Source of the DNA: an uncultured Micrococcales bacterium
Lineage (GTDB): Bacteria; Actinomycetota; Actinomycetes; S36-B12; UBA10799
Reading direction: 5' to 3'
DNA: 64,000 nucleotides
Assembly: GCA_937952095.1 (NCBI GenBank)
Contig: CALFYG010000089.1
Location: 1,114-65,113, forward strand
Part shown: piece after piece, positions 47,944-64,000 of the stretch
How positions within the stretch are numbered: the first letter of the stretch is position 1
How the letters are laid out: each line of letters opens with the position of its first letter
Program-made: the position numbers and the translations under genes
The notes under the pieces: generated by a model
What the model was told of the DNA's origin: nothing
The model's input: only the letters and a program-made list of their open reading frames with translations
The model's database searches: none

Positions 47944-47946
47944 GCG

Positions 47947-49053: not shown

Positions 49054-49063
49054 GATAGTGCTG

Positions 49064-49447
49064 ATGGCCGAGCCGAAGACCCGCCCCACCGGCGCCAGCG
49101 TCGAGGCATTCCTGGACGCCGCGACTCCCAGGCAGCGTCGAACGGACGGATTCACGCTGCTGGAGATCATGGGCGAGATCACCGGGCAGCCCGCCGTGAT
49201 GTGGGGACCCAGCATCGTCGGCTTCGGTTCCAGGCCGATGGTCTACGCCTCCGGTGCCACGGTCGACTGGCCGGTGGTGGCGTTCAGTCCGCGCAAGGCC
49301 AGCCTGGTGCTGTACATCGACCACGACGACGACCTGCTGGCCAGACTCGGTAAGCACAAGCTGGGCAAGGGATGCCTGTACATCACCAAACTCTCCGACG
49401 TGGAGGAATCGGTGTTGCGCGAGTTGATCTCGCGGACCGTCGGCTAG
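49064..49447 (+). CDS. DUF1801 domain protein
   Basis: KTRPTGASVEAFLDAATPRQRRTDGFTLLEIMGEITGQPAVMWGPSIVGFG...VAFSPRKASLVLY. Confidence 0.75.
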   Translation: MAEPKTRPTGASVEAFLDAATPRQRRTDGFTLLEIMGEITGQPAVMWGPSIVGFGSRPMVYASGATVDWPVVAFSPRKASLVLYIDHDDDLLARLGKHKLGKGCLYITKLSDVEESVLRELISRTVG

Positions 49448-49977
49448 TCCTCGAGCCCCGGCGGATCCTCGCCAACCAAACCGTCCACGGTTTCGCGGAT
49501 CAGATCGGCGTGGCCGGTGTGGCGGGCGTACTCCTCGATGAAGTCCACCAGGATGCGCCGCAGTCCCGGGCGTTGTCCGTCGGGGAACCTCACACCGAGA
49601 TGGTCGAGCCCGTTCGCGGCGAGGGCCTCAGCGAGCAGTTCGCGTGAGCGCACCACGGAGGTCCGCCACAGAGCCGTCAGTGTCTCGGGACTGTCGTGGG
49701 CTGCGGATGTCCATGGCCATTCCTCGCTGTGTTCACGCCACATGGGCTGCAGCGGCCGGCCATGGAGCTTGTACGAGAACGTGAAGTCCTCCGCGAAGGC
49801 CATGTGTTTGAGAAGCCCGCCGAGTGTGATGGTTGAGACGCCGATCCGCGCCCGCATCCCGTCTGCGTCCACTCCGGTGCATTTCCAGGCGAAGGTGGCC
49901 CGTTGGCGCTCCAGGGAACCGACAAGCGTGGTGAGTTCATCGCCGACGACCGGCGGGAAACGCGGCCAGGAATCCAT
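49444..49977 (-). CDS. DinB/DUF664 family protein
   Basis: LVGSLERQRATFAWKC...TLGGLLKHMAFAEDFTF...FIEEYARHTGHADLIRE. Confidence 0.78.
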   Translation of the reverse strand: MDSWPRFPPVVGDELTTLVGSLERQRATFAWKCTGVDADGMRARIGVSTITLGGLLKHMAFAEDFTFSYKLHGRPLQPMWREHSEEWPWTSAAHDSPETLTALWRTSVVRSRELLAEALAANGLDHLGVRFPDGQRPGLRRILVDFIEEYARHTGHADLIRETVDGLVGEDPPGLED

Positions 49978-49987
49978 GCAGCGACAT

Positions 49988-50767
49988 TCAGGGCCGGGAC
50001 ACCACGAAGAACCGTGCTCCGTTGGGGTCGAGGACCCCGGCGACCACGCTGGTGGCCGTCTCGTAGGGCTTGACGAACACCTTGCCGCCCAAGGACAACG
50101 CGTCGTCCACGGTGCCGGGTACATCGTTCACCGCGAAGTACACCTGCCACACCGCGGGGATCTCCTCCGGCACGTTGCGGGGCATGTCCTCCGCGCCGGC
50201 GTTGGTCTGGTCCTCACCGGGCTTGTCCGGCAAGTGGGCGACCTTGTAGCCCGGCGTGGTGCCGTCGGTCCAGATCCATCCGAAGACCTTCTCGTAGAAC
50301 GGCAGAGCAGCCGTCAGGTCGCGGGTCTGCAGTTCGTTCCACGTCAGCGAACACGGTTCGTCGAAGACATCGGCGCCGGTGTGCGCGTACGGCTGCCAGA
50401 TCCCGAGCATGCCGCCGCTCGGGTCCATGATGTTGGCCAGCCGCCCCTGGTCGGTGACGTCCATGGGCGCGAGCATCACCTGCCCGCCCGCGGCCCGCAC
50501 CGCCTCACACGTGGCATCCGCGTCGTGCACGAGGACGTACGAGACCCACTGCGGGAGCAGGCCCTCGGCCGACATCTCCGGGGGCATCGGGCTCATGCCG
50601 GCGACGAGTTGGCCGTCGAGGAAGAACTGCGTGTAGTGGGCGCCCATGTCCTGCGTGCGGTCGTAGGCCTCCCATCCGAACAGCCCGCAATAGAAGTCCC
50701 GCGCGCGGTCCTCATCGGACGTGAAGGTGTCGGCCCAGCCGAACATGCCATCGGGATGCGCAAACAT
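49988..50767 (-). CDS. two-domain VOC (glyoxalase/bleomycin-resistance fold) protein
   Basis: FGWADTFTSDEDRARDFYCGLFGW... and a second half ..ALPFYEKVFGWIW...VWQVYFAVNDV... Paralog of the next gene. Confidence 0.8.
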   Translation of the reverse strand: MFAHPDGMFGWADTFTSDEDRARDFYCGLFGWEAYDRTQDMGAHYTQFFLDGQLVAGMSPMPPEMSAEGLLPQWVSYVLVHDADATCEAVRAAGGQVMLAPMDVTDQGRLANIMDPSGGMLGIWQPYAHTGADVFDEPCSLTWNELQTRDLTAALPFYEKVFGWIWTDGTTPGYKVAHLPDKPGEDQTNAGAEDMPRNVPEEIPAVWQVYFAVNDVPGTVDDALSLGGKVFVKPYETATSVVAGVLDPNGARFFVVSRP

Positions 50768-50797
50768 GCTCCGAGGGTATGGCACCGACATCGGCGT

Positions 50798-51568
50798 CTA
50801 GAACGACCCGAGCAGGAACATGCCTCCGGTCGGGTCGATGAGTCCGCCGAACTTGCCGGGTCCCATCTCCATCGCCGGCAGGAACACCTCGCCGCCGAGG
50901 CCTTCGGCCGCCGCCATCGAGGTGTCGCAGTCCTCGACCGCGAAGTAGACCATCCAGACGTTGGGCGCCTCGTCCGGCACCCCTGGAGGCGTGGTCATCG
51001 CCCCGGCGTTGGACTTGTCATCACCCTCCTTGGCCGCGATGTTGGCCACGTAGTACCCCGGGTTCGGCCCGTCGTCCCACTCCCAGCCGAACACCGTCTC
51101 GTAGAAGGGTAGCGCCGCCTCGATGTCGCGGGTCTGCAGCTCGTTCCAGGTCATCGACCCGGGTGCGTTGAAGATGTCGGCACCTTGGTGGGCCGCGGGT
51201 TGCCACAAGCCGACGGCGGCGCCGGTGGGGTCGGCCAGCATCGCCATCCGACCCTGATCCATGACGTCCATCGGCGGCATCGAGATTGTTCCTCCTGCGG
51301 CCTCGGCTGCAGCTGCCGTGGCGTCGGCGTCCTCGACCAGCACGTACGAGGTCCAGAACGCCCCGACCTCCTCGGGCACCCCGGGCATCATCGGGGACAG
51401 TCCGCACACGAGCTGCCCGTCCTTGAAGAACTGCGTGTAGGGCGGGCCCATCGGGGTGGGCTGGTCCACGTGGGTCCACCCGAACAACCCCTCGTAGAAC
51501 TCGATGGCCCGGCCCGGGTCGCGGGTCATGAGATCGGCCCAGCCGAACAGTCCATTCGGATACCGCAT
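50798..51568 (-). CDS. two-domain VOC family protein (tandem paralog)
   Basis: AAAGGAGA SD before ATG 51568. LFGWADLMTRDPGRAIEFYEGLFGW...ALPFYETVFGWEW...VWMVYFAVEDC. Confidence 0.8.
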   Translation of the reverse strand: MRYPNGLFGWADLMTRDPGRAIEFYEGLFGWTHVDQPTPMGPPYTQFFKDGQLVCGLSPMMPGVPEEVGAFWTSYVLVEDADATAAAAEAAGGTISMPPMDVMDQGRMAMLADPTGAAVGLWQPAAHQGADIFNAPGSMTWNELQTRDIEAALPFYETVFGWEWDDGPNPGYYVANIAAKEGDDKSNAGAMTTPPGVPDEAPNVWMVYFAVEDCDTSMAAAEGLGGEVFLPAMEMGPGKFGGLIDPTGGMFLLGSF

Positions 51569-51730
51569 GATGTCTCCTTTCGTCCGTGGTCCCACGCTAG
51601 GCACGGGGTACGACATCCGCGCAAGGGTCCAACGGACACAGTTGTTCCGGCCAACGCGCGGTGACGTAGCGGTGACACGTGGCCGACCGGTGGGGAATCG
51701 GCCGGGGTGCCTCACGGGGCCGGGTGCGAT

Positions 51731-51754
51731 TAGGTTTGTGCGTAGGTTTGTGCG
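51731..51754 (+). promoter_or_regulatory. tandem 12-bp direct repeat TAGGTTTGTGCG x2 just upstream of glpK
   Basis: Exact duplication at 51731-42 and 51743-54. Each copy starts with the TANNNT-type hexamer TAGGTT. 20 nt upstream of ATG 51775. Confidence 0.3.
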
Positions 51755-51774
51755 CAGACGAGTGGAGGCAGCAC

Positions 51775-53271
51775 ATGGCGATCATGGCCATCGATCAGGG
51801 CACGACCTCGAGCCGGGCGATCATCTTCGACGTCGACGGCGTCCCGCTGGCGATGGACCAGCAGGAACACGAGCAGATCTTCCCCAAGGCAGGCTGGGTC
51901 GAGCACGATCCCATGGAGATCTGGCGCAACACCCGCGAGGTGATGGGCGCCGCGCTGGCGAAGTCGAACCTGTCGCTGAGCGACATCGATGCGGTCGGCA
52001 TCACGCAGCAGCGGGAGACGACGGTCGTCTGGAACCGCACGACCGGCCTGCCGATCTACAACGCGATCGTCTGGCAGGATACGCGGACCCAGGCGATATG
52101 CGACGAGCTCGCGAACACAGTCGGCGAGGACCGCTTCCGGCAGACGACCGGCCTTCCGCTGGCCACCTACTTCTGCGGGCCCAAGGTCCGCTGGATCCTG
52201 GACAACGTCCCCGGCGCTCGCGCCCAGGCCGAGTCCGGGGTGCTTCTCATGGGCACCATCGACACCTGGCTGCTGTGGAACCTCACCAACGGCCGCGTGC
52301 ACGCGACCGACCCCAGCAATGCCTCCCGGACCCTGCTCATGGACCTCGACACCCTGCAGTGGGACCCCGAACTCGCCGACGTGATGGGTGTGCCGATGAG
52401 CATGCTCCCGGAGATTCGCAGTTCATCGGAGGTCTTCGGCGAGGTCCAGAGCCCGGCATCCATGCGAGGTGTTCCCATTGCGGGAATCCTCGGCGACCAG
52501 CAGGCGGCCACCTTCGGCCAGGCGTGCCTGAGCCCTGGCGAGGCGAAGAACACCTACGGAACGGGAAACTTCCTGCTCCTCAACACCGGAACGGAGAAGG
52601 TGCTGAGCAACAACGGGCTGCTCACGACCGTCTGCTACAAGATCGGTGACGCCCCGGCCGTGTACGCCTTGGAGGGGTCCATCGCGGTGACGGGCAGCCT
52701 CATCCAGTGGCTGCGGGACAACCTCGGGATCATCGACTCGGCGCCGGAGATCGAGGAGTTGGCCCGTGGTGTGGAGGACAACGGCGACTGCTACTTCGTG
52801 CCGGCGTTCAGCGGATTGTTCGCCCCGTACTGGCGCGGTGATGCGCGGGGAGCGATCGTGGGGCTCACCCGGTTCATCAACAAGGGGCACATCGCCCGGG
52901 CCGCCCTGGAAGCCGCCGCGTACCAGTCACGCGAGGTCATCGAGGCCATGGAGGCCGACAGCGGCGTGCGGCTGACGACGCTGAAGGTCGACGGCGGAAT
53001 GGTCCTCAACGAGTTGCTGATGCAGTTCCAGTCCGACGTGCTCGGCGTCCCCGTGATCCGGCCCCGGACGATCGAGACCACCGCGCTCGGCGCCGCCTAT
53101 GCGGCGGGGCTGGCCGTGGGCTTCTGGGAGAACGAGACGGCCATCCGCACCAACTGGGCCGAGGGCAAGCGCTGGGAGCCGCAGATGTCGCCGGGGGACC
53201 GGGAGTGGCTGTTCGACCGGTGGCGGCAGGCGGTCACGCGCACGTTCGACTGGGTGCCGACGGGCCAGTAG
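51775..53271 (+). CDS. glpK: glycerol kinase
   Basis: [15 protein letters not shown]...[11 protein letters not shown]...[28 protein letters not shown]... Confidence 0.95.
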
Positions 53272-53363
53272 CCGCAGGCGGCGCGAGTGTCACCAAACGG
53301 TCAGTTCCAAGGGCGCGGATCGTGCGTCTTCGTAGCACTCGCCCGCAGGTCCTCCGGCGGGGC

Positions 53364-54050
53364 TCAGACGAAGTCGGGTGCCTGTTGCATGACCGGTTCC
53401 CCCAGGTCTAGGTCGGGGAACCATTCGGCGAGCAGGGCGCGGACCTGCAGGTCGATGTCGACGAGCACCTGCTGGACCTCGGCGCCCGACAGCCCTTCGA
53501 GGTGGCTGATGTCGCGCCATTCGTAGCGGTCCTGGCCGTCGATCACAGGCAGGGAGCCGGCCGTGGTGGCGCCCACCACGACCAGTCGGTCCGCGACGGC
53601 GAGCATCTCGTCGCTGTACTTCTTGGGGATGTCGGTCAGGTGCACACCGTGAGCCGCGAGGCCGTTGGTGACCTCGTCCAGCACGTGCCCCTTGGGCGCC
53701 ACACCGGCCGATACGACGTAGACCAGCCCGGGGGCGTAGTAGCGGAAGAGCGCCGCGGCTGCCTGGGAGCGGCCGATGTTGTCCTGACAGACGATGAGGA
53801 CCTCGGGCTGCGACTTCAGGATCTCGCCGGCCTGGATCTGTTCGGCGCGGACCTGGGTCAGGGCGGCCCGCCCGACGAGCACCGGGAGGTAGGTCTTCAC
53901 AGAAGCGGTGGCCGCCATCTGGTCGTACAACTCGTCGACGATCGCCGCGAGGCGCTCCCGGGGGATGGCCGCGCCGGTGTGGTTGACCAGGCCGTCGACC
54001 ACACTGCGCAGCTGCATGTCGACATTGGGCTCTCGCGCGGTTTCACTCAC
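53364..54050 (-). CDS. LMW-phosphatase/ArsC-fold protein with N-terminal three-helix domain
   Basis: LIVCQDNIGRSQAAAALF (CX5R(S) P-loop). The N-terminal ~70 aa are helical. GTG 54050 chosen as start. Confidence 0.65.
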   Translation of the reverse strand: MSETAREPNVDMQLRSVVDGLVNHTGAAIPRERLAAIVDELYDQMAATASVKTYLPVLVGRAALTQVRAEQIQAGEILKSQPEVLIVCQDNIGRSQAAAALFRYYAPGLVYVVSAGVAPKGHVLDEVTNGLAAHGVHLTDIPKKYSDEMLAVADRLVVVGATTAGSLPVIDGQDRYEWRDISHLEGLSGAEVQQVLVDIDLQVRALLAEWFPDLDLGEPVMQQAPDFV

Positions 54051-54063
54051 TCCTGCATTGTGC

Positions 54064-55038
54064 TCAACCGCGGGGGCGACTCGCAACGAATACCGGAAGT
54101 CCGGCGCGCCATGCCAGGTAGTACTGGTCACGCTGCATACCCACACTCTCGTACAGCTGCGTCGCACCCGTGGGGTTGGTGGCGTCGCAGTGCAGCGCGG
54201 TACCGGTGAATCCCAGACCGGCGTCGCGGTGGAACGCATCGCGCAGCAGGAACTTCGCGACCCCCCTGCCGCGGTACTCGCGCAGCACCCCCAGGGTGGC
54301 CACGTAGCCCAGCTGATGGGCCGCGTAGCGGTTGCTTCCGAGGCACACACCCACACAGTCGTCCCCGTCGAACACCAGGCGCCACTGTGTGAGGTCCGCG
54401 GTCTCGTCGAGCATGTCCTGCTTGAAGGCGTCGAACGGCCGCGGGTGGAAGTCGTAGTGATCGAGGAAGGATGATTGCACGACCTCGTACACATCGCCCC
54501 AGTTCTCCTCGCGCATCCCCCCGACGGTCAGACCGGGGGGTGGCGTCGCGGGTTGGGGTGTGTCGAGGAAGTCCAGCCGCATACGCAGATAGACGCGGTG
54601 GGTCTCGTAGCCGGCCTCCCGCAGCGCGGATTCGACGGCGTCATCGCCACGGAAACTCTCCACCTTCAGCGTCGCGCCGAGGGGGACCTCGAAGGTCGCG
54701 GCATACGACTGCCCGGCGACCAGCAGGCGGGCGGCGATCTGCTGCCGGTGCCGGGCGTGGGGGGCGATGAACACATCCATGTAGAGGGCGTGGCTGTGGG
54801 CGAAGTCCTCGTACGCCAGCGCCACCGCCACCAGTTCCTCGTCATGCCACACCGCCGCGGTGCCTCGTGCGCCGTGCAGCTCGGGTGCACGCAGCGCCCC
54901 GAGCGTCTCGGAGTCGTTGCTGTCCGAGCGTCCGAAGAACGCGGTTTCCATCGACGTGACCACGGCGGTCACCTGGGAGAGATGCGCATCCTCCACCGGC
55001 GTCACTCGAAGCCCGGAGGGCAGTCCGGTGGTATGCAT
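54064..55038 (-). CDS. tandem-GNAT N-acetyltransferase
   Basis: Second half ..LGYVATLGVLREYRGRGVAKFLLRDAF... (acetyl-CoA motif A). The first half is a degenerate GNAT. ATG 55038 chosen as start. Confidence 0.75.
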   Translation of the reverse strand: MHTTGLPSGLRVTPVEDAHLSQVTAVVTSMETAFFGRSDSNDSETLGALRAPELHGARGTAAVWHDEELVAVALAYEDFAHSHALYMDVFIAPHARHRQQIAARLLVAGQSYAATFEVPLGATLKVESFRGDDAVESALREAGYETHRVYLRMRLDFLDTPQPATPPPGLTVGGMREENWGDVYEVVQSSFLDHYDFHPRPFDAFKQDMLDETADLTQWRLVFDGDDCVGVCLGSNRYAAHQLGYVATLGVLREYRGRGVAKFLLRDAFHRDAGLGFTGTALHCDATNPTGATQLYESVGMQRDQYYLAWRAGLPVFVASRPRG

Positions 55039-55131
55039 GGCGAGGTGTGACACGGCTGTCAGGCAACCACAAGCCGGGGCCGGTCGCCAGCAGGTTTCGC
55101 CGCCGAGGACCGCATGGGCGAGGATGGGGCT

Positions 55132-56013
55132 GTGAAACGTGTGCTCCTGCTGGTCGTCGCATTCCTGCTGGCCGGGTGTGCCAGCAGTGCCGGATCGCCG
55201 GCGCCGAGCCCGTCGGCACCGTGCGATCCTGGCCCGGCCGGGACCAGGCAGGTCCAGGTCGGCAAGCGGTCGTTCCTGCTGCACGTACCCACCGATTTCC
55301 AGAACCCCTCGCCGGCCGTGTTCACGTTCCACGGCCGCGGCTCCAACGCCCAGCAACAGCTACTGCTGACCGGCTTCGATCAGGTCGCCGAGGAGGGTCG
55401 CTTCCTCGTGGTCGCGCCGGAGGCCCGTAACGGCCGCTGGGACTTCACCGGAGGCGACGACGACTATCTGCGGGCAGTGGGCGCCGCGGTGCCGTGCATG
55501 GATCCCACCCGCGTCTACGCCTCCGGGATGTCGATGGGTTCGGCGATGACGTTCGCGCTCGCATGCGCTCCTGACCGCAAGTTCGCGGCCTTCGGCGGTG
55601 TGGCGCTCACGGTGTTCGAGCCGCAGTGCGAGCAGGCACCGCCCGCGCCGATCATCTACTTCCACGGCACCGCCGATGAAGTGGTGCCGTTCCGGGGTGG
55701 GCAGCCCGAGGGTGAAGACATCGACCTTCCGGCGGTACCGGTGGCGATGCGGGAATGGGCGCAGCACAACGGCTGCACCTCCGACACCGTCGAACGCCTC
55801 GGCAAGGACATCCGGTTGCAGGAGTGGAGCGACTGCACGGCCGATGCCGACGTGGACTACTACCGGGTGCGCGGCGGGGGTCACACGTGGCCGGGTACGG
55901 CACCTTTCATCGCCGATGCGATCGAGCAGTCCCTGGGCAAGACCTCACAGACGGTGAACGCGTCGTCACTGATGTGGGAGTTCTTCGAGCAGTACACGCT
56001 GTCACCCGCCTGA
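55132..56013 (+). CDS. secreted lipoprotein, PHB-depolymerase/LpqC-type esterase family
   Basis: Signal peptide plus lipobox VVAFLLAGCASS. FTFHGRGSNAQQ...GRFLVVAPEA...RVYASGMSMGSAMTF (GxSxG)...YFHGTADEVVP. Confidence 0.8.
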   Translation: MKRVLLLVVAFLLAGCASSAGSPAPSPSAPCDPGPAGTRQVQVGKRSFLLHVPTDFQNPSPAVFTFHGRGSNAQQQLLLTGFDQVAEEGRFLVVAPEARNGRWDFTGGDDDYLRAVGAAVPCMDPTRVYASGMSMGSAMTFALACAPDRKFAAFGGVALTVFEPQCEQAPPAPIIYFHGTADEVVPFRGGQPEGEDIDLPAVPVAMREWAQHNGCTSDTVERLGKDIRLQEWSDCTADADVDYYRVRGGGHTWPGTAPFIADAIEQSLGKTSQTVNASSLMWEFFEQYTLSPA

Positions 56014-56091
56014 GCGCGAGTTCGACCCCGGGAAACACCCGCCGCCGCTGTGTCACAGTTGAGGGGATCCTCGTCCAGACAGGAGTGGCAC

Positions 56092-57297
56092 ATGCTCGAA
56101 TTCGCATCCTCCAACTGCCGGGCGGTGAACGCCGAACGAGCCGTGCTTGAAGCCCTGGAGTTGGCCTACGGTGTACCGGATCCCGAGGTGGACCTTATCC
56201 TGATCAACGCCGCCGTGGGCCACGACTTGCAGACCCTGTCGCGTGTGGCGATGCGGCAGTGCCCGGATGCCCGCGTGCTGGCCGCGTCCTGCGCCGGTGT
56301 GGTGGGACCGCAGGGCCCGGGGGAGTCATTGCACGACATCGGACTCATCGGCGTGCGCGGCTCGGAGTTCACCGTGGCGCAGGTGGATGGGCTGTTCGGG
56401 GCCACGTCGTTCGAGATGGGTGCGGCGCTCGGTGAGCAACTGGCGAGCACTCCACAGCCGGTCAGCATGGTCTACCTGCTCGCCTCCGGCATCGACATCG
56501 CCAACGACCGGGTGATCGAGGGTATCGAGTCGGTGCTGGGTCCGGACGTGGTGATATTCGGGGCCACCTCCAGCGACCAGATGCAGGGAGTGGCGACGTA
56601 TCAGGCGATCGACGGTGAGTCCTACCAGCACGCGGCCTTCGCCGTGGGGTTCTGGGATCCCACCCTGCGGGTCGACACGCAAGCGACGCACGGGTTCATC
56701 GCCGTCGGCGAGCCCATGGTCGTGACCGCTGCGGAGGGCAACCGGATCATCGAGCTCGACGGCAAGCCCGCGTGGCCGACGTACCTCGAGCGGATGGGCC
56801 TGTCACCGGACGCCACGGAGGGCGACACCATCCCGATCGGCGCGCTGGCCGAGGAGTTGTCACCCGAACTCGCCGCGGAGTACGGGAACGCGCACATCCT
56901 GCGGGTGGTGACGCACCACACGGACGACGGCGAGATCATCTACGCCACCGAGGTTCCGGTGGGCACCAGACTCTGGCTCACCGTGCGCGACGAGGAGCGC
57001 ATCTTCGCGGACATGGACCGGATGATGCAGTCGATGGAGAAGCGATATCCGGACAGCAAGCCGGTCGCCGTGTTCCAGGCCGACTGCCTTGCGCGTGGGC
57101 GACGGCTCTTCGACAGGGTGATGAAGGAGGAACTGGTCCACCGCATGCAACAGCCCATGGCCACCGACGGTGAACTCCCGGCCTGGTTCGGGATGTACGG
57201 CTTCGGCGAGTACGCCCGCCTCGGCGGCACCAACTGCTACCACAACTACACGACGGCCCTGGCCGCCCTGTACCGCGTGGGAGACGACGGCGCATAG
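56092..57297 (+). CDS. FIST (FIST_N + FIST_C) sensory domain protein
   Basis: Architecture and motifs: ..LILINAAVGHD...VIFGATSSDQMQG...FIAVGEPMVVTAAEGNRIIELDGKPA...WFGMYGFGEY. Confidence 0.72.
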   Translation: MLEFASSNCRAVNAERAVLEALELAYGVPDPEVDLILINAAVGHDLQTLSRVAMRQCPDARVLAASCAGVVGPQGPGESLHDIGLIGVRGSEFTVAQVDGLFGATSFEMGAALGEQLASTPQPVSMVYLLASGIDIANDRVIEGIESVLGPDVVIFGATSSDQMQGVATYQAIDGESYQHAAFAVGFWDPTLRVDTQATHGFIAVGEPMVVTAAEGNRIIELDGKPAWPTYLERMGLSPDATEGDTIPIGALAEELSPELAAEYGNAHILRVVTHHTDDGEIIYATEVPVGTRLWLTVRDEERIFADMDRMMQSMEKRYPDSKPVAVFQADCLARGRRLFDRVMKEELVHRMQQPMATDGELPAWFGMYGFGEYARLGGTNCYHNYTTALAALYRVGDDGA

Positions 57298-57309
57298 GCC
57301 GGCACTGCG

Positions 57310-59598
57310 ATGACCGAGGACGTGTCGAGCCCATCGCGCCGGATCGACGCCGGTGCGTACAGCCTGCTCCAGCAGCAGCTGGTCTCGGTGCGTGCCCGCC
57401 TCGACCGCCAGGTCAGTCAACTGATCCGGCTCAACCGCGTCTCCGACGAGTTGCTGCATGCGCAGGCCCCAATGGCGCAGTTCTTCGCGGAGGCCATCGT
57501 GGACATCCTGGACGTGGCTCTGGGTGCGGTGTGGATCTTCGGTGACGACGGGCAGCCGTCCCAGGTCGCGGCGTTCGGCGTGCCGGACAGCGACGGGTGG
57601 GCGCAGGCCGGCATGAGGATCGCAGAGCAGTTGCAGGAATCGAAGGCCGTGCCCTTGCCGGACCCGGTGCGGCAGTACCTGCCTGGCCCGGCCCTCGTCG
57701 ACCCGATCGTCTGTCGGGCATTCGGGGCCGACAAGCAGGTGAAGGCGCTGCTGCTGGCGTCCAACACGACGTCCATGGCCGGCATGTGCGAACCGACCGC
57801 GGAGGAGACCCTCGAGATCCTGACGTTGGTGGCCGAGAAGTTGTCCGCACACATGGCCGTGCTGGCCGACCGCAAGATCATCGCCGAACAGGTTGTGATG
57901 CTTCGTGAGTCCGAGGAACGTCTGGGGCTGGTGCTCAAGGGCACCAACGACGGGTGGTGGGACTGGGAACTGACCTCGCACAAGTGCCTGGTGTCGCAGA
58001 GGTGGTTGCAGATGCTCGGTCTTGAGGGTGGCGACGTCGAAGTGCTGGACGGCTTCTGGTGGGATCAGGTGCACCCCGAGGACCGCGCGAGCTTCCGTGG
58101 AGATCTCGAGGACGCGCTGGCCGGTGACGCCGGGGGCCTCGAGGCGGAGATCCGGATGCGGCATCAGGACGGCACCTACGTCCCGGTCCTCCTGCGCGGG
58201 ACGATCACGCGCGCCGCCGGGGGTGAGCCGGTCCGCTTCACCGGCTCCATCTTCGACCTGTCCGAGCGGCATCGCCAGGAGAACCAGGTCCGGCGCCTGG
58301 CCTTCTTCGATCCCCTCACGGATCTGCCCAACCGGCGCATGCTCATCAGCCGCATCGAAGACACGCTGCGCGTCAACAGCCAGACCGGTGCGATCGCGGC
58401 GGTGCTGATGCTCGACCTCGATCGGTTCAAGACACTCAACGACACCCACGGGCACGCCGCCGGTGACCAACTCCTGCGGATCGCGGCCCACCGCCTGCAT
58501 GCGGAGGTGCGCGACGCCGACACTGTCGCCAGGCTGTCCGGTGACGAGTTCGTCGCGTTGCTGCCCGCCGCCGGTGACGACGTGCCCGGGGCCATCCGGT
58601 CCGCCGAACTGGTCGCCGAACGTCTCCAGCAGGCGCTCAACCGGCCCTTCGAGCTCGATGCGGGGACCATGCATCTGAGTACCAGCATCGGGATCGCGCT
58701 GGCTGCCGGTTCGACGGCGACCGTGGACGACGTGCTGAAGCAGGCCGATGTCGCGATGTACGAGGCCAAGGCCGCCGGGCGCAACGCAGTGAGGGTGTTC
58801 AAGCTGGCCATGCAGATGCAGCTGGAGGAGAGGGCCAGGTTCGACGCGAGGCTGCGGGAGGGTTTCGCGGCCGGGGAGCTCGAGGTGCACTACCAGCCGC
58901 AGGTCGACGCGGAAGGGCGGTTGTGCGGGACCGAGGCGCTGCTGCGGTGGTTCCCGCCGGAGCTCGGTCCGGTGGCCCCCACCGAGATCATCACAGCGGC
59001 AGAGGACAGTGGATTCATCCACGAACTCGGCCAGTGGGCACTGGAGACCGTGTGCCGGCAGGCCGCCCTTTGGGGGTCGGGTCCGGATTCTCGGATCGCC
59101 GTGAACCTGAGTTCCGCGGAGTTCCTCCATCCCGATTTCCCGGAACGGGTGCTCGCGGTCCTGGAACGCACCGGGGTGTCCGGCAAGGCCATCCGACTGG
59201 AGATCACCGAGGCCACAGTCGTCAGCGACGTGGAGTTCGCCGCCAGCCGCATGGAGACCTTGATGGCACACGGCATCGAGTTCTCCGCGGATGACTTCGG
59301 CACTGGGTACTCGTCCTTGACGTACCTGCGGGGGCTGCCCTTCTCGGAGGTGAAGATCGACCGTAGTTATGCCGCGCGACTGCCCACCGATGCTCAGGAC
59401 GTGGCGATCGTGCAGGCCATCATGGCGCTGTGCCAGACGCTCGGTCTGCGCATCGTCGCCGAAGGCGTGGAGACCTCGGCACAGCTGGAAGCCCTCGCGA
59501 AGTACGGCGGTGAGGTGTTCCAGGGGCACCTGTTCGGGGGCCCGCAGCCGCCACCGACTCGCCCTGAGGACCTCGTCCAACGCCGGCGCTCGGTCTAG
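57310..59598 (+). CDS. GAF-like + PAS + GGDEF + EAL c-di-GMP signalling protein
   Basis: FFDPLTDLPNRRML...LMLDLDRFKTLNDTHGHAAGDQLL...ARLSGDEFVALL (SGDEF). EALLRW...RLEITE...ADDFGTGYSSLTYL...VKIDRSY...AEGVE. Confidence 0.9.
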   Translation: MTEDVSSPSRRIDAGAYSLLQQQLVSVRARLDRQVSQLIRLNRVSDELLHAQAPMAQFFAEAIVDILDVALGAVWIFGDDGQPSQVAAFGVPDSDGWAQAGMRIAEQLQESKAVPLPDPVRQYLPGPALVDPIVCRAFGADKQVKALLLASNTTSMAGMCEPTAEETLEILTLVAEKLSAHMAVLADRKIIAEQVVMLRESEERLGLVLKGTNDGWWDWELTSHKCLVSQRWLQMLGLEGGDVEVLDGFWWDQVHPEDRASFRGDLEDALAGDAGGLEAEIRMRHQDGTYVPVLLRGTITRAAGGEPVRFTGSIFDLSERHRQENQVRRLAFFDPLTDLPNRRMLISRIEDTLRVNSQTGAIAAVLMLDLDRFKTLNDTHGHAAGDQLLRIAAHRLHAEVRDADTVARLSGDEFVALLPAAGDDVPGAIRSAELVAERLQQALNRPFELDAGTMHLSTSIGIALAAGSTATVDDVLKQADVAMYEAKAAGRNAVRVFKLAMQMQLEERARFDARLREGFAAGELEVHYQPQVDAEGRLCGTEALLRWFPPELGPVAPTEIITAAEDSGFIHELGQWALETVCRQAALWGSGPDSRIAVNLSSAEFLHPDFPERVLAVLERTGVSGKAIRLEITEATVVSDVEFAASRMETLMAHGIEFSADDFGTGYSSLTYLRGLPFSEVKIDRSYAARLPTDAQDVAIVQAIMALCQTLGLRIVAEGVETSAQLEALAKYGGEVFQGHLFGGPQPPPTRPEDLVQRRRSV

Positions 59599-60290
59599 AA
59601 GCGCCAGACCTCCACAGCGAGAGCGGCGGGCACGCCGACCGAACTCCCGGTCTGCTCCAGGAACGCCCGCAGGAACTCCGGGTCGGCCATGGGGTGCTCG
59701 CCGAGGCCGTCGAGGTATGCCCGGTGCTCGGACAGCGACGCCACCGCCCGGTCGACACCGGCGGAGACGTCGAGCGCGTGGGTCGCCTCGGGTGAACCCG
59801 CCACCAGGGCGAGGTCGACGTGGTGGGGTTCGGTCCCCGGGAAGATCCACCGGTTCCCGGCATCGGCGATCGCATCGAGTGCCGCTTCGCCCACGATCCG
59901 GTGGTCGGCGCTGTTGCGGGCGTGTGGGCCCCAACTCTCCCGGTGGTTGAAGAGCAGGACGGTGTCCGGGGTGTGCCGCCGGATCGCGTGCGCGAACTCG
60001 CGGCGCAGGCCCATGCGGTCGTGGATCGTGCCGTCGGGGTGGGCGAGGAACTCCACGACCCCCACGCCCACGACGTCGGCGCTGCTGATCTGCTCGGCCT
60101 CGCGGACCACAGCCGCCTGTTCCGGGTCCATGCCGTCGATGCCCGCCTCGCCGCGGGTGGCCAGCAGGTAGCGACAGTCCGCACCGGCAGCCGTCCACAT
60201 GGCCACCGCGGCTGCCGCACCGTACTCGATGTCGTCGGGGTGCGCGACGATCGCCAGCGCCCGCCGGGGCGTGTGTTCCAGCAGTTCCAT
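59595..60290 (-). CDS. PIG-L (LmbE-like) family deacetylase
   Basis: ALAIVAHPDDIEYGAAAAVAMWTAAG...LATRGEAG...HPDH. Confidence 0.82.
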   Translation of the reverse strand: MELLEHTPRRALAIVAHPDDIEYGAAAAVAMWTAAGADCRYLLATRGEAGIDGMDPEQAAVVREAEQISSADVVGVGVVEFLAHPDGTIHDRMGLRREFAHAIRRHTPDTVLLFNHRESWGPHARNSADHRIVGEAALDAIADAGNRWIFPGTEPHHVDLALVAGSPEATHALDVSAGVDRAVASLSEHRAYLDGLGEHPMADPEFLRAFLEQTGSSVGVPAALAVEVWRF

Positions 60291-61178
60291 TTACTGCTGT
60301 GGCTTCGACTGGAAGGCGGAGGCGAAGTTCTCCAGGGCGCCGGTCAGTTCGGCCGGGACGACCCACACCTTGTTCGACTCCCCCTTGGCGATCTCCGGCA
60401 GTGCCTGCAGGTACTGGTAGGCGAGCAACTTGGGATCGGGGTCGGCCTGGTGGATTGCGTCGAACACCTTCTGCACCGCCTGCGCCTCACCCTCGGCGCG
60501 CAGGATCGCCGACTGCTTGTCACCCTCTGCACGAAGCACAGTGGCCTCCCGCTCGCCCTGCGCAGTCAGGATCTGGGACTGCTTGATGCCCTCGGCCGTG
60601 AGGATGGCCGCCCGGCGATCGCGCTCGGCGCGCATCTGCTTCTCCATCGACTCCTGCACGCTCGGCGGCGGGTCGATGGCCTTGAGTTCGACGCGGTTCA
60701 CGCGGATCCCCCACTTCCCGGTTGCCTCGTCGAGGACCCCGCGGAGTTGGCTGTTGATCTGGTCGCGTGAGGTCAGTGTGGCTTCGAGGTCCATGCTGCC
60801 GACGACGTTGCGCAGGGTCGTGACCGTCAACTGCTCGACGCCCCAGATGTAGTTCTGGATCTCGTAGGTCGCGGCCTTCGGGTCGGTGACCTGGAAGTAG
60901 ATGACCGAGTCGATGCTGACCACCAAGTTGTCCTCGGTGATCACCGGCTGCGGCTGGAAGCTCACCACCTGCTCACGAAGGTCGAGCCGGGAGGTGATGC
61001 GGTCGACGAACGGAACCAGGATGTGCAGCCCGGCGCCGAGGGTGCGGCTGTACCGACCCAGGCGCTCGACCACACAGGCCTGCGCCTGCGGGACGATCCG
61101 GACCGTCTTGGCGATGACGATGATGACGAACAACAGGACGAGCAGTACGACGACGGCACTGGCGATGGCTGCGGTCAT
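60291..61178 (-). CDS. SPFH/band-7 (stomatin-like) protein
   Basis: IVPQAQACVVERLGRYSRTLGAGLHILVPFVDR...TLRNVVGSMDLEATLTSRDQIN... plus coiled-coil tail. Confidence 0.9.
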   Translation of the reverse strand: MTAAIASAVVVLLVLLFVIIVIAKTVRIVPQAQACVVERLGRYSRTLGAGLHILVPFVDRITSRLDLREQVVSFQPQPVITEDNLVVSIDSVIYFQVTDPKAATYEIQNYIWGVEQLTVTTLRNVVGSMDLEATLTSRDQINSQLRGVLDEATGKWGIRVNRVELKAIDPPPSVQESMEKQMRAERDRRAAILTAEGIKQSQILTAQGEREATVLRAEGDKQSAILRAEGEAQAVQKVFDAIHQADPDPKLLAYQYLQALPEIAKGESNKVWVVPAELTGALENFASAFQSKPQQ

Positions 61179-61187
61179 GTCTTCTCC

Positions 61188-61616
61188 TCAGTAGGGCCGG
61201 ATGATCGCGGTGGCACCGCGGATGGCGACGACGGTTCCGGTGGCACCGGTGTCGATGGGGTCCCAGGCGTCTTCGAGTTGGGCCGACCAGATCTCGCCGT
61301 TGAGCTTGACCCGTCCGCTCTGCGCGGTCACCGTCTCGAGCACGGTGACCTGCTGGCCAATCAGCGCGTCCACCCCGGTCAGGGCGGTCGGTCCGGTCTT
61401 GAGGTGGCGCAGTGCGATCGGGCGGACCGCGAAGATCCCCAGCACGGCCACCCCGACGGCGGCGCCGGCCTGCACGATCAGTGGCGCACCCAGGGCAGCG
61501 GCACCCGCGCCCGCAAGCGCACCCGCGGCGAGCATGATGAGCACGAAGTCGAGGCTCATGACCTCGAGAATCCCGAACACCACCGCCGCGATGAGCCAGA
61601 AGATCGCTGCTGACAC
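61188..61616 (-). CDS. NfeD family membrane protein
   Basis: Two to three TM helices then OB-fold-like GQQVTVLETVTAQSGRVKLNGEIWSAQ. GTG 61616 chosen as start. Confidence 0.8.
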   Translation of the reverse strand: MSAAIFWLIAAVVFGILEVMSLDFVLIMLAAGALAGAGAAALGAPLIVQAGAAVGVAVLGIFAVRPIALRHLKTGPTALTGVDALIGQQVTVLETVTAQSGRVKLNGEIWSAQLEDAWDPIDTGATGTVVAIRGATAIIRPY

Positions 61617-61831
61617 TGTGCCTCCTCCGTCCAGCCTATGCGCTCGACTGCCGGAGGGGAAACAGCGTGATTGCCGTGGAGGCGCCCCCACAATTGGGCC
61701 GGAAATGCCGAGAGGCCCGGAAACCGACCTCTTTCGATGCCCGGAGTGCCTGGTTTGCACCCTTCTGAGAGGGCGGGCAGCCCGGAAACCCACCTTTGTC
61801 GCCCAGTTGTGGGGAGGCTAGCCTGAGCCCG

Positions 61832-62761
61832 ATGGACGTCTACGTGCCCGGTCGGGCGATGCGCAATCCCCACCTGCAGACCACACGCAGTCGGCTGCTG
61901 CCCCTTCGTGTCCATCTGCCCGAGCCGGAACTCGTCCTGGTGGATATGCCGGACGGCTCCGGAGACCGCCTTGCCGTGCTGCTGCACGAGGGGGATCCGG
62001 ACAAGCCGCTGGTGCTGGTGGTGCACGGTCTGGGCGGAAGCGCGGAGTCCGACTACGTCCGCTACGTGACCGCCGGCCTGCTCGACGCCGGTTTCCCGGT
62101 GGGGCGGATCGATCTGCGCGGAGCCGGCACCGGCGAGTACGCCGTCGGGATGTACCACGGCGGCAAGACCGAGGACGTGCGAGCGGTCATCGAGCACTTC
62201 GACCGCCCGGTGGCCCTGGTCGGCTTCTCCTTGGGCGGGAACCTGAGTATCAAACTCCTGGGCGAACACCCGGATGCTGTCGTGGCCGGCGTGGCGGTCT
62301 CGGCTCCACTCGACCTCGCGGTCAGCGTCGAGCACCTGCACCACATGGCCGGGGGACTCTACGAGCGCTTCTTGGTGCACCGCCTGCGCAAGGAGGCATT
62401 GCGGGCAGGCGCGCGCTACACCCCCGAGGAACGCGCGGGCATCATCGCCGCCAAGGGCCTCGTGGAGTTCGACAACGCGCTGACCGCACCGCGCCACGGG
62501 TGGCGCGACGCCGCCGAGTACTACGCGGTCAATTCCAGCATCGGGTACCTGGACAAGGTCGAGGTCCCGCTGCTGCTCGTGCACTCCAGGGACGACCCGA
62601 TGGTGCCCTTCGGCCCGTACCTGTCGGTGGACTGGGATGCGCTGCCCACCACTGAACTGGTGCTCACCGACCACGGCGGGCACGTGGGGTTCCACAGCCG
62701 TGGGCGAGCGCCCTACTACGTCGGCTTGGCCGTCGACTTCCTGCGGAAGGTCGAGGGCTAG
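61832..62761 (+). CDS. alpha/beta hydrolase (YheT-like)
   Basis: PLVLVVHGLGGSAESDYVR...DLRGAG...VALVGFSLGGNL...SRDDPMVP. Start could be 61832 or nearby. Confidence 0.78.
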   Translation: MDVYVPGRAMRNPHLQTTRSRLLPLRVHLPEPELVLVDMPDGSGDRLAVLLHEGDPDKPLVLVVHGLGGSAESDYVRYVTAGLLDAGFPVGRIDLRGAGTGEYAVGMYHGGKTEDVRAVIEHFDRPVALVGFSLGGNLSIKLLGEHPDAVVAGVAVSAPLDLAVSVEHLHHMAGGLYERFLVHRLRKEALRAGARYTPEERAGIIAAKGLVEFDNALTAPRHGWRDAAEYYAVNSSIGYLDKVEVPLLLVHSRDDPMVPFGPYLSVDWDALPTTELVLTDHGGHVGFHSRGRAPYYVGLAVDFLRKVEG

Positions 62762-63330
62762 CGCGTCTCGAGGTCGAGCCGGATGTGGGAGATCATGGAC
62801 CGCAGGGCGGTGTGGGCGTTGAGCAGGTCCTCGCCCCAGCTCGACAGGTAGGCGTATTGCCACCACCACAGGGCCTCGATCGGCCGCCCGGCGGCGTAGT
62901 GGCCGAAACCGTGGTTGAGGTCGGTGACGATGCTGGACAGGTCGTCGGACAGCGACGACTCCACGATCTCCGGCGCCGGGAAGTACGGGTCGTCGATGGT
63001 GTTGTACCTGTCGGCGTGGCTGAAGACTTCGGCAAGGCGCAGCCGCAGGTCGTCGACCTCGGGTTCTCCGCCTGTGTCCGGCTCGTAGCGGCCCTCCGGG
63101 ACGACGTCGGTGAGCGCGCCGAGCCGTGCCCCGTGCGCGGCCAGCTGCGAGGTGTGGATGAGCAGCAGTGCGATGGCACTGTCGCCGAGGCCGCCGGCGG
63201 CGACCCGTTCGACGGCGATGACGAACTCCTGCACCGCTACTGCCATCTCGTCGGCGAGATCCAGAGCCGTCGAGTCCACCGGGGTGGGGGCAGCCGTCAC
63301 CGACACCTCGTCACCTGGCAAGTCACGCAT
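62758..63330 (-). CDS. DUF5063 domain protein (usual recR neighbour in actinobacteria)
   Basis: ...[12 protein letters not shown]...[18 protein letters not shown]...[34 protein letters not shown]. Confidence 0.75.
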
Positions 63331-63628
63331 CGATCCTCCTGCGTCCCGCGAACGCCCTTCCGAGCGTCACCTCATCAGCCAACTCCAGGTCACCGCCCAT
63401 CGGCAACCCACTGGCCAAACGTGTCACAGCCACGCCGATCGTGGCCAACTGCCGGCCCAAGTATGCGGCGGTCGCCTCGCCCTCGGTGTTCGGGTCGGTT
63501 GCCAGAATGACCTCCTGCACCGTGCCGTCCGCAAGGCGCCCGAAGAGCTCTCTTATGTGCAACTGGTCCGGGCCGATGCCGCGCATGGGGTCCAGCACGC
63601 CACCGAGCACGTGGTAGCGGCCGCGGAA
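63323..63628 (-). pseudogene. recR: recR 3' portion only (Toprim + C-terminal domain; HhH and C4 zinc finger missing)
   Basis: [32 protein letters not shown]...[22 protein letters not shown]...[24 protein letters not shown]. The in-frame upstream sequence is not RecR-like. Confidence 0.75.
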
Positions 63629-64000
63629 GCCGTGATCGTCGACCAGATCCTGGTAGATGGCCTTGGCATTGCGGCCTTTGCTCAGAGACAACTCAATGAA
63701 GTCGGCATAGGGTTGGCAGGCGCTAGCGGAGGGGCCGCGAGTTGGCGTGGGCACCGAGGCAGAGTCGAGGGACACTTCGTTGGCCGGTTTTGGCGCTCGC
63801 GTGCTGGGAGCGGTGCCGGAGTCGGGGGACACCTCGTTGGCCGGTTTTCGATCCGGTCCCGAGTCGGTGGACACCTCTATGGCCGGATATGCCGCGCGGC
63901 CCCAGCGGCCGGGCTCGCGCACCGCAATCCCGGCCGCCTTCAGGTAGCCGCTCGCGGTCTCGCGCCGGACACCCGTCGCATCCTCGATGCGGCGCAGCGT
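63629..64000 (-). mobile_element. IS21-family-like transposase (IstA) N-terminal fragment, fused in frame to recR; continues beyond window
   Basis: Frame open to nt 64000: [27 protein letters not shown] (HTH-like), KPANEVS(P/L)DS repeats, [32 protein letters not shown] (pattern recalled from IS21 IstA N-termini). Confidence 0.5.

What the first reader, a model, noticed from the sequence alone, without database searches (positions are those of the whole stretch)
63323..64000. In-frame chimera: IS21-like transposase N-terminus joined to the 3' half of recR at a GF-RGRY microhomology
Seen: on the minus strand the frame is open from nt 64000 through 63323.
- The first ~125 codons read [27 protein letters not shown]..., then KPANEVS(P/L)DS repeats, then [32 protein letters not shown]. 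This is a pattern I recall from IS21-family IstA N-termini.
- From [10 protein letters not shown] onward the sequence is unmistakably RecR (Toprim, [11 protein letters not shown]-terminal GGDLE).
- The RecR HhH motif and C4 zinc finger are absent.
- The downstream DUF5063 gene is the normal recR neighbour.
- Both parents plausibly contain GF/EF-xG-xY at the junction.
Inference: either a deletion or illegitimate recombination between an IS copy and recR, which would inactivate recR, or an assembly chimera at a short shared sequence. This is not a simple IS insertion: no IS end, no inverted repeat, and the transposase catalytic part is missing.
Basis: partly seen in the sequence, partly recalled or inferred. 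Interest (0 to 1): 0.6.

Follow-up and report, generated by a model that had tools for sequence, protein, structure and literature searches.

The report
Broken recR joined to transposase fragment
At the very end of the window, the first fifth of a jumping-gene (IS21-type) transposase gene is spliced in frame onto the last half of the DNA-repair gene recR; only this one assembly has the join, so it is either an assembly or library artefact or a very recent private gene knockout, and it is not a new kind of protein.

Summary
On the minus strand, 64000-63620 encodes the N-terminus of an IS21-family IstA (HTH-1, a KPANEVSxDS-repeat linker, and part of HTH-2). It is joined in frame to recR codons 106/108-203, followed by the usual DUF5063 neighbour.

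- **Crossover:** it lies in an 8-nt microhomology, CGCTACCA (63612-63619). The wild-type RecR of this species reads FTGRY, not FRGRY.
- **Both folds are cut:** the join falls inside HTH-2 of IstA and inside Toprim of RecR. The RecR HhH and Cys4 finger are missing, so the product cannot be a working RecR or a working transposase.
- **Private to this window:** the host is an uncultured actinobacterium abundant in metagenomes. All 16 conspecific contigs covering the site continue as intact recR after dnaX. The window has no private SNP in the adjacent 16 kb.
- **Foreign IS:** relatives occur almost only in Acidobacteriota, Planctomycetota and Myxococcota. No protein in the searched set spans the junction, and the fragment's GC3 is foreign to the host.
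- **Local assembly trouble:** contigs of this species often break at dnaX-recR, sometimes with foreign or adapter tips.

I lean towards a chimeric join that is not part of the genome (about 0.55). The main rival is a recent strain-private microhomology rearrangement that kills recR (about 0.4). Only reads can decide. Interest is low.

The parts
63620..64000 (-). 5' fragment of an IS21-family istA gene, equivalent to IstA residues 22-120 of the 515-aa L011 protein. It comprises most of HTH-1, the linker, and HTH-2 up to just before its last helix. It runs off the window end; about 21 codons and the IS left end would lie beyond 64000.
   Evidence: The best 120 listed homologues are 48-70% identical, aligned. 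Relatives are intact istA-istB elements, and L011 passes NF033546 and NF038214. The window itself scores only 18.1 bits on NF033546. The domain layout is taken from PMC10122671 and applied by analogy.
63748..63890 (-). Three tandem 42-57-nt units encoding the (K/Y)PA(N/I)EVSxDS repeats of the IstA inter-HTH linker. The third unit is degenerate.
   Evidence: the repeat finder family D1: 3 copies of 44 nt at 100, 82 and 66% identity, spaced 57 and 42 nt apart. The same motif is conserved in relatives.
63612..63619 (-). Crossover zone: CGCTACCA (codons R-Y plus CA), shared by the IS parent type (..GGC CGC TAC CAG..) and by wild-type recR (..GGG CGC TAC CAC..).
   Evidence: Alignment of the window with wild-type loci. 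Megablast identity to wild type ends at 63619. L011, L016 and L018 read GGC CGC TAC CAG. Positions 63620 and 63623 are the only positions that differ from every conspecific contig covering them.
63323..63611 (-). 3' remnant of recR: wild-type codons 108-203 plus the stop. This is Toprim without its first 22 residues, plus the RecR C-terminal motif. It is 100% identical to wild type.
   Evidence: Toprim_4 profile positions 17-85 and RecR_C. TIGR00615 profile positions 98-196. Identical to L090-L093.
62758..63330 (-). DUF5063 gene, the normal downstream neighbour of recR. Its ATG overlaps the recR stop by 8 nt (ATGCGTGA).
   Evidence: PF16702, 114.9 bits. The identical protein follows intact recR in 10 contigs and is recorded on 248 contigs.

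Best explanation
The join is most likely not part of the organism's chromosome. I read it as a chimeric end of the assembled sequence. A DNA molecule or read path began in an IS21-family istA gene of another community member and switched template at the 8-nt match CGCTACCA into the actinobacterial recR. The assembler then used it to extend a contig at a place where contigs of this species habitually break. Under this reading nothing 'works': the in-frame ORF follows from the match falling on R-Y codons in the same phase in both genes.

Shown:
- the anatomy of the join;
- the 8-nt microhomology;
- the privacy of the junction to this window;
- the foreign composition and taxonomy of the IS part;
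- the loss of essential parts of both proteins.

Inferred:
- that the join arose in vitro or in silico rather than in the cell;
- that the window end is close to a contig end.
For: 1. **The junction is private.** All 16 conspecific contigs (98.7-99.9% identical) that cover window 63619 continue with intact recR after dnaX. The exact wild-type RecR is recorded on 149 contigs.
2. **The strain is otherwise not distinct.** There is no private SNP from 47305 to 63619. The sequence is 100% identical to L090 over the last 8.4 kb, and L090 carries intact recR.
3. **The IS is foreign to this lineage.**
   - Of 77 related loci in one genome per species, nearly all are Acidobacteriota, Planctomycetota or Myxococcota. 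The single Actinomycetota hit is 50% identical.
   - The fragment's GC3 is 0.787. That equals the minimum of 269 host 127-codon windows (mean 0.886, sd 0.031) and is close to Acidobacterial copies at 0.67-0.77.
4. **Co-occurrence.** A related IS (89.5% nt identity over 181 nt, L011 = WBZP01023899.1) and a 99.9% identical host contig (WBZL01001190.1) carry neighbouring accession prefixes. This suggests both parents live in the same kind of community.
5. **No independent support.** The junction pattern is absent from genome contigs. No protein in the searched set (about 5.8 billion sequences) spans it.
6. **This locus is a break point with odd tips in other assemblies.**
   - L092 and L096 end in dnaX.
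   - L093 ends in a 315-nt, roughly 50% GC foreign tip joined inside dnaX.
   - L099 is an Illumina adapter joined to recR codon 103, 7 nt from this junction.
7. **Position.** The foreign part is only the last 381 nt of the window. Nothing of dnaX, the recR 5' half or the rest of the IS is in the 64 kb.
8. **Literature.** Chimeric contigs are documented in activated-sludge metagenome assemblies (PMC7881036).
Against: - No reads are available, so nothing here is direct.
- Eight nucleotides of identity are far too few for a de Bruijn or overlap misjoin. The artefact therefore needs a template-switch chimera in the library.
- An assembler would normally prefer the well-covered wild-type path over such a tip.
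- Microhomology of this size is just as typical of genuine illegitimate recombination.
- The IS fragment is a clean open frame that keeps the family's conserved residues.
- Its GC3 is a little higher than in the Acidobacterial copies.
- Truncated N-terminal remnants of this IS clade do occur in real long contigs: L025, L036, L040, L060, L061.
- I could not show that the window end is a contig end.
Confidence: 0.55

Rival explanations
1. The junction is real and private to one strain. An IS21-family element, or foreign DNA carrying one, entered this actinobacterium. RecA-independent, microhomology-mediated recombination at CGCTACCA then joined istA codon 120 to recR codon 106-108.

Three routes are possible:
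- a deletion after an IS insertion in or just upstream of the recR 5' half;
- an inversion or translocation with an IS copy elsewhere;
- a one-step illegitimate integration of incoming DNA.

The result is a recR null allele and a dead IS remnant. The RecFOR route of RecA loading would be lost.
For: - An 8-nt microhomology is very unlikely at a random join (about 3e-4), so an annealing-driven join is indicated. Such 8-mers are plentiful between the two parents, at 213 positions.
- An assembler following the dominant path is the simplest way to obtain this sequence.
- The IS clade spans several phyla on long contigs and in isolate genomes, so it moves between hosts.
- N-terminal-only remnants of the clade exist in real genomes.
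- The downstream genes are intact and the recR stop/DUF5063 start overlap is preserved.
- From my own knowledge of mycobacterial genetics, recR is dispensable for viability in other Actinomycetota.
Against: - It requires a foreign IS, its arrival at this locus and an internal breakpoint, all within a lineage that shows no private SNP in 16 kb.
- 16 of 16 other contigs are wild type.
- No IS at 90% identity or more appears anywhere in the protein set, even though the host is sampled on hundreds of contigs.
- The fragment's GC3 is foreign to the host.
- A simple deletion cannot extend far upstream, because it would remove dnaX, which is normally essential. The original insertion site is therefore confined to a few hundred bases.
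- A recR-null clone would have to dominate its sample.
Confidence: 0.4
2. The in-frame fusion is a functional new protein, or a genuine novel RecR N-terminal domain. The IstA HTH-1 and linker would replace the RecR HhH/zinc-finger module and deliver the Toprim part to DNA.
For: The frame is open across the junction. Both halves are DNA-related, and the downstream operon structure is kept.
Against: - Both folds are cut.
  - The join removes the first 22 residues of Toprim. Wild-type Toprim_4 spans residues 84-174, and the chimera matches profile positions 17-85 only.
  - The IstA part ends inside HTH-2, before its last helix.
- RecR truncated at the N-terminus (32-196, 51-196) is monomeric and does not bind RecO (PMC3510498).
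- No relative has this architecture.
- It fails both family cutoffs.
Confidence: 0.02
3. An ordinary IS21 insertion into recR, seen at one IS end.
For: An IS-family gene abuts a truncated housekeeping gene.
Against: - The junction lies at istA codon 120, several hundred bases inside the element.
- In intact relatives, the IS left end lies roughly 100 nt upstream of the istA start (L025/L032 comparison).
- The only inverted repeat in 63600-64000 is a 15-nt pair at 63905-63937, about 290 nt from the join, and nothing resembling an IS end lies at the join.
- The orientation is wrong for an end-on junction: the istA 5' part reads into recR.
Confidence: 0.01

Closest known systems
RecR recombination mediator (TIGR00615; Pfam RecR_HhH, Toprim_4, RecR_C, plus the Cys4 zinc finger)
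   Same: The last 96-98 residues are identical to the species' own RecR, with the usual DUF5063 gene downstream.
   Different: Residues 1-105 are missing: HhH (10-52), the Cys4 finger (C60, C63, C72, C75) and the first strand region of Toprim (84-105). It scores 133.7 bits against a cutoff of 162.55, where the wild type scores 260.1. No dnaX lies upstream in the window.
IS21-family insertion sequences (IstA transposase NF033546 plus IstB helper ATPase NF038214); structural reference is the IS21-family IstA of PMC10122671
   Same: The 5' part is homologous to IstA N-termini (48-70% identity among the best listed hits). It has HTH-1, a linker and the start of HTH-2. The closest DNA relative, L011, is an intact istA-istB element.
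   Different: It stops at IstA residue 120 of 515. There is no DDE core, no IstB and no terminal repeats in the window. It scores 18.1 bits against a cutoff of 160. The linker carries KPANEVSxDS repeats not described for the model element.
Chimeric contig ends in metagenome assemblies
   Same: The join is private to one assembly, sits at the extreme end of the sequence, is compositionally and taxonomically foreign, and lies at a locus where other assemblies break or carry foreign or adapter tips (PMC7881036).
   Different: The two parents share only 8 nt, so a k-mer misjoin cannot explain it. Read-level evidence is lacking.
Microhomology-mediated illegitimate recombination or deletion between short direct repeats in bacteria (own knowledge, for example the classical lacI deletion studies)
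   Same: The join lies in an 8-nt identity flanked by partial similarity (13 of 17). It leaves a truncated IS and a truncated gene.
   Different: The presence of the IS in this genome, and of the reciprocal or deleted material, could not be shown.

Membership tests
RecR (TIGR00615 equivalog) | Whole-protein score at or above the curated cutoff (162.55 bits) | tested here: not met
   133.7 bits, profile positions 98-196 only. The wild-type protein of the same species scores 260.1.
RecR (TIGR00615 equivalog) | N-terminal helix-hairpin-helix domain (needed for the N-N dimer) | tested here: not met
   No RecR_HhH hit in the chimera. The wild type has it at residues 10-52. Role from PMC3510498.
RecR (TIGR00615 equivalog) | Cys4 zinc finger | tested here: not met
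   Wild-type cysteines 60, 63, 72 and 75 lie upstream of the junction. tblastn finds only residues 103-203 in the window.
RecR (TIGR00615 equivalog) | Complete Toprim domain | tested here: not met
   Toprim_4 matched from profile position 17 of 85. The wild-type domain spans 84-174, so its first 22 residues are replaced.
RecR (TIGR00615 equivalog) | RecR C-terminal motif and the usual gene neighbourhood | tested here: met
   RecR_C at 42.2 bits. DUF5063 lies downstream as in the related contigs. The upstream neighbour dnaX is absent from the window.
IS21-family element | IstA transposase reaching the NF033546 cutoff (160 bits), with a DDE (rve) core | tested here: not met
   18.1 bits, profile positions 11-91. 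No rve hit. The relative L011 scores 238.7 and has rve.
IS21-family element | N-terminal tandem HTH region homologous to IstA | tested here: met
   The best listed homologues are 48-70% identical over 94-100% of the 129-aa query. Full-length relatives are istA-istB pairs. Only HTH-1, the linker and part of HTH-2 are present.
IS21-family element | Adjacent istB helper ATPase gene | tested here: not met
   tblastn with the L011 IstB finds nothing in the window.
IS21-family element | Terminal inverted repeats and target-site duplication | not testable with these tools
   The left end would lie beyond position 64000 and the source contig could not be retrieved. The junction itself is not an IS end.
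Assembly or library chimera | Junction unsupported, or supported only by rare or duplicate reads, while the wild-type path has full depth | not testable with these tools
   No reads or coverage data are available. Indirect evidence only.
Genuine microhomology-mediated rearrangement | Short identity at the breakpoint | tested here: met
   CGCTACCA, 8 nt; probability about 3e-4 at a random join. This feature is shared with template-switch artefacts, so it does not discriminate.
Genuine microhomology-mediated rearrangement | Parent IS resident in the same genome, or a reciprocal or flanking junction | tested here: inconclusive
   There is no other IS piece in the 64-kb window. None was found in the species-level genome scan or in the protein set. 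The source genome itself was not available.

The most novel reading that the evidence does not exclude
The junction is real and the in-frame ORF is expressed from the IS promoter. It would be a hybrid carrying IstA HTH-1 and its repeat linker fused to the RecO/RecF-binding remnant of RecR. It might act as a dominant-negative or as an IS-end-tethered recombination factor in a natural recR-deficient strain of an abundant uncultured wastewater actinobacterium. The more modest version is simply that the lesion is real: cross-phylum IS21 DNA joined by microhomology, giving a natural recR null. That version has a probability of about 0.4 but is of a well-known kind.
Probability: 0.02. Interest if true: 0.5.

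Novelty: not a real feature. Interest (0 to 1): 0.12.

Why it matters
It matters little for biology. If the join is an artefact, its value is practical. It is a worked example of a contig-end chimera that mimics an in-frame domain fusion, and such a case could be annotated as a novel RecR or a 'domesticated transposase'. It also flags dnaX-recR as a recurrent break point in assemblies of this organism.

If the join is real, it would be one strain's recent recR knockout through a known mechanism (microhomology-mediated illegitimate recombination involving an IS). It would then have some interest as evidence for cross-phylum IS21 transfer into an uncultured actinobacterium.

Tried and rejected
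**Retrieving the source contig to see beyond 64000.**
- Exact look-ups of the 199-aa and 225-aa chimeric products found nothing.
- Look-ups of the DUF5063 and GGDEF-EAL proteins returned 20 contigs. Of the 17 that reach the site, all carry intact recR, and none is the source.
- The junction pattern is absent from genome contigs.
- The IS-side pattern in metagenome-contig hit only an unrelated intact IS, L011.

**Finding a strain-specific protein to fish out the source contig.** The window has no private allele between 47305 and 63619.

**Looking for the missing pieces inside the window.** There is no dnaX, no recR 5' half, no other wild-type upstream DNA, no istA 3' part and no istB. This rejects a local rearrangement within the 64 kb.

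**Looking for the same fusion elsewhere.** A junction-centred protein search found no sequence spanning both sides. That search returned only 68 short candidates, so its reach is limited.

**Looking for adapters in the window.** None found.

**Other scans.** Promoter/terminator and Rfam scans found nothing relevant.

**Readings considered and rejected.**
- A simple IS insertion: the junction is internal to istA.
- A de Bruijn or overlap misjoin at a shared sequence: only 8 nt are shared.
- A random ligation chimera: the microhomology has probability about 3e-4.
- A conserved novel RecR N-terminal domain: all relatives are canonical.

Full report

The C-terminal 100 residues hit Pfam Toprim_4 (profile positions 17-85 of 85) and RecR_C. 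They also hit the NCBIfam recR equivalog, but only over profile positions 98-196 and at 133.7 bits, below the 162.55 cutoff. The next gene downstream (62758-63330, minus) is DUF5063 at 114.9 bits. Its ATG overlaps the recR stop by 8 nt.

The N-terminal 125 residues hit the IS21 transposase model only weakly (E 0.0016). A homologue search nevertheless returned 1743 proteins, and the best 120 listed are 48-70% identical over 94-100% of the query. Their alignment gives the consensus ...[35 protein letters not shown]..[20 protein letters not shown]..[45 protein letters not shown].

The genomic relatives are nearly all complete istA-istB pairs. The closest at DNA level is L011, 89.5% identical over 181 nt. 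It encodes a 515-aa IstA and a 249-aa IstB, which pass the curated IS21 transposase and IstB models at 238.7 and 239.7 bits. Plasmid matches lie under genes annotated istA. The KPANEVSxDS repeats are three 44-nt DNA units at 63748-63890.

**The wild-type locus.** The DUF5063 protein is recorded unchanged on 248 contigs. Its sources name the organism as an uncultured Actinomycetota / 'Candidatus Nanopelagicales bacterium' MAG.

Twenty contigs retrieved through two flanking proteins are 98.7-99.9% identical to the window. Every one of the 17 that reaches the site has dnaX (about 600 aa), then a 203-aa recR, then a DUF5063-position gene (16 have DUF5063 itself; the diverged L089 has a 346-aa ORF without a Pfam hit there).

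The intact RecR has HhH at 10-52, cysteines at 60, 63, 72 and 75, Toprim_4 at 84-174 and RecR_C at 176-199. It scores 260.1 bits.

**The junction.** Wild type reads GAG TTC ACG GGG CGC TAC CAC GTG (E F T G R Y H V). The window reads GGC TTC CGC GGC CGC TAC CAC GTG (G F R G R Y H V). The nearest IS relatives read GGC TTC CGC GGC CGC TAC CAG AGC (G F R G R Y Q S).

- The switch therefore lies inside CGCTACCA, window 63612-63619. Position 63620 is IS-type and 63611 is recR-type.
- The shared protein motif is F-x-G-R-Y, and the R of FRGRY comes from the IS.
- In simulated random joins of an IS proxy to dnaX-recR, 8 nt or more of microhomology occurs with probability about 3e-4. The join was therefore made by annealing, not by blunt ligation.
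- Shared 8-mers are common between the two sequences (213 positions), so the site is not special.
- The in-frame result follows from the match being in the same codon phase in both genes.

**What the product would be.** The join corresponds to IstA residue 120 of 515. In the structurally characterised IS21-family IstA, two N-terminal HTH domains are joined by a minor-groove-binding linker and are followed by the DDE core (PMC10122671). By analogy, the fragment keeps HTH-1, the repeat-bearing linker and HTH-2 without its last helix. That mapping is an inference.

On the RecR side, residues 1-105 are lost, including the HhH, the zinc finger and the first 22 residues of Toprim. RecR truncated to residues 32-196 or 51-196 is monomeric and does not bind RecO (PMC3510498). 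The ORF therefore cannot be a working RecR or a working transposase, and a functional fusion is very unlikely. No relative has such an architecture.

**Real or artefact.** The evidence favouring an artefact is as follows.
- The window differs from all 16 conspecific contigs that cover the site only on the IS side of the junction. It has no private SNP from 47305 to 63619, and it is identical over its last 8.4 kb to L090, which carries intact recR.
- The IS clade is found almost only in Acidobacteriota, Planctomycetota, Myxococcota and a few other phyla. There is one distant Actinomycetota hit.
- No protein more than about 91% identical to even the most conserved IS stretch exists in the searched set, although the host is heavily sampled.
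- The fragment's GC3 (0.787) equals the minimum of 269 host windows of the same length (mean 0.886, sd 0.031). It is close to Acidobacterial copies at 0.67-0.77.
- Nothing of dnaX, the recR 5' half or the rest of the IS lies in the window.
- Other assemblies of this organism often end in dnaX or recR (L092, L096).
  - One (L093) ends in a 315-nt foreign tip of about 50% GC joined inside dnaX.
  - One tiny contig (L099) is an Illumina adapter joined to recR codon 103, 7 nt from this junction.
- Chimeric contigs are documented for activated-sludge metagenomes (PMC7881036).

The evidence against an artefact is as follows.
- Eight nucleotides cannot cause a k-mer or overlap misjoin. A template-switch chimera in the reads is needed, and the assembler must have taken it in preference to the wild-type path.
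- Microhomology is equally the signature of genuine illegitimate recombination.
- The IS clade does cross phyla.
- N-terminal remnants of the clade exist on real long contigs.

I could not retrieve the source contig or any reads. I put the artefact at about 0.55, a real and very recent strain-private recR knockout at about 0.40, and a functional fusion at about 0.02.

**Comparison with known things.** The 3' part is the species' own recR. As a protein, the ORF fails every N-terminal defining feature of RecR and the family cutoff. The 5' part belongs to an IS21-family istA. The window holds no DDE core, no istB and no IS ends, and the junction is not an IS end, so this is not an IS insertion. 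Both remaining explanations are well-known kinds: a chimeric contig end, or a microhomology-mediated rearrangement involving an IS.

**Verdict.** The feature is ordinary and most likely not a real genomic feature. Interest is low (0.12). Read mapping across 63,560-63,700, or PCR from the IS part into DUF5063, would settle it.

Noticed in passing
L093 17096-17410 (ENA ERZ650282 NODE_89_length_66925_cov_8.27): The last 315 nt of this 66.9-kb contig of the same species are about 50% GC and unrelated to wild type. They are joined inside dnaX and encode a response-regulator-like N-terminus (MDAQHLYRIVLIDDSRMARLGLREQL...). This is a second odd join at a contig end in the same dnaX-recR neighbourhood.
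   Followed up: partly
L099 1-60 (ENA ERZ724099 NODE_204872_length_605_cov_2.19); protein P0151: The contig starts with the Illumina TruSeq adapter GTGACTGGAGTTCAGACGTGTGCTCTTCCGATCT, joined directly to the recR of a related strain at codon 103, 7 nt from the window's junction. The gene call therefore begins MCSSDL (adapter-derived). This may be coincidence, or a preferred fragment end at this site.
   Followed up: partly
L025 about 6431 onward, L036; proteins P0003, P0004, P0016, P0038, P0064, P0103: Many relatives of this IstA are short ORFs that share one break, '..TPPGE|DYG[KE]SRVMVR..', at about IstA residue 161. L025 loses homology to the intact copy in the same genome (L032) there, yet stays homologous to L036 beyond the break. 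An IS110-family transposase ORF lies downstream (L025 8472-9359, minus). This looks like a second element that inserts at one fixed site inside this istA.
   Followed up: partly
L049, L053, L070, L071, L072, L081: These IS21-clade copies have istA or istB split by insertions of 1-3.5 kb, that is, nested elements.
   Followed up: no
L024, L027, L030, L031, L035, L051, L072, L073 at the codons for GF-TGRY: Some IS relatives read TTC ACG GGG CGC TA(C/T) at this motif. That is 12-14 nt identical to the host recR (TTC ACG GGG CGC TAC), which is longer than the 8 nt shared by the variant present in the window.
   Followed up: no
L089 12286-16551 (JGI 3300056626, 83.7-kb contig): This is a diverged variant of the locus. 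The PIG-L gene is missing or merged (Band_7 ORF of 526 aa). The hydrolase/DUF5063 region is only 85.5% identical, while neighbouring genes are 98% identical. recR and dnaX are intact.
   Followed up: no
L092, L093, L096 (ends in dnaX); L095, L097, L098 (ends 2-4 kb downstream of recR): Independent assemblies of this organism repeatedly terminate in or near dnaX-recR. This suggests a region that is hard to assemble, either GC-rich low-complexity dnaX or strain variation.
   Followed up: no
window 56860-60366 (minus) and other long antisense ORFs: A 1168-aa ORF lies antisense to the GGDEF-EAL gene. Several other long overlapping ORFs are the usual high-GC artefacts, not genes.
   Followed up: no
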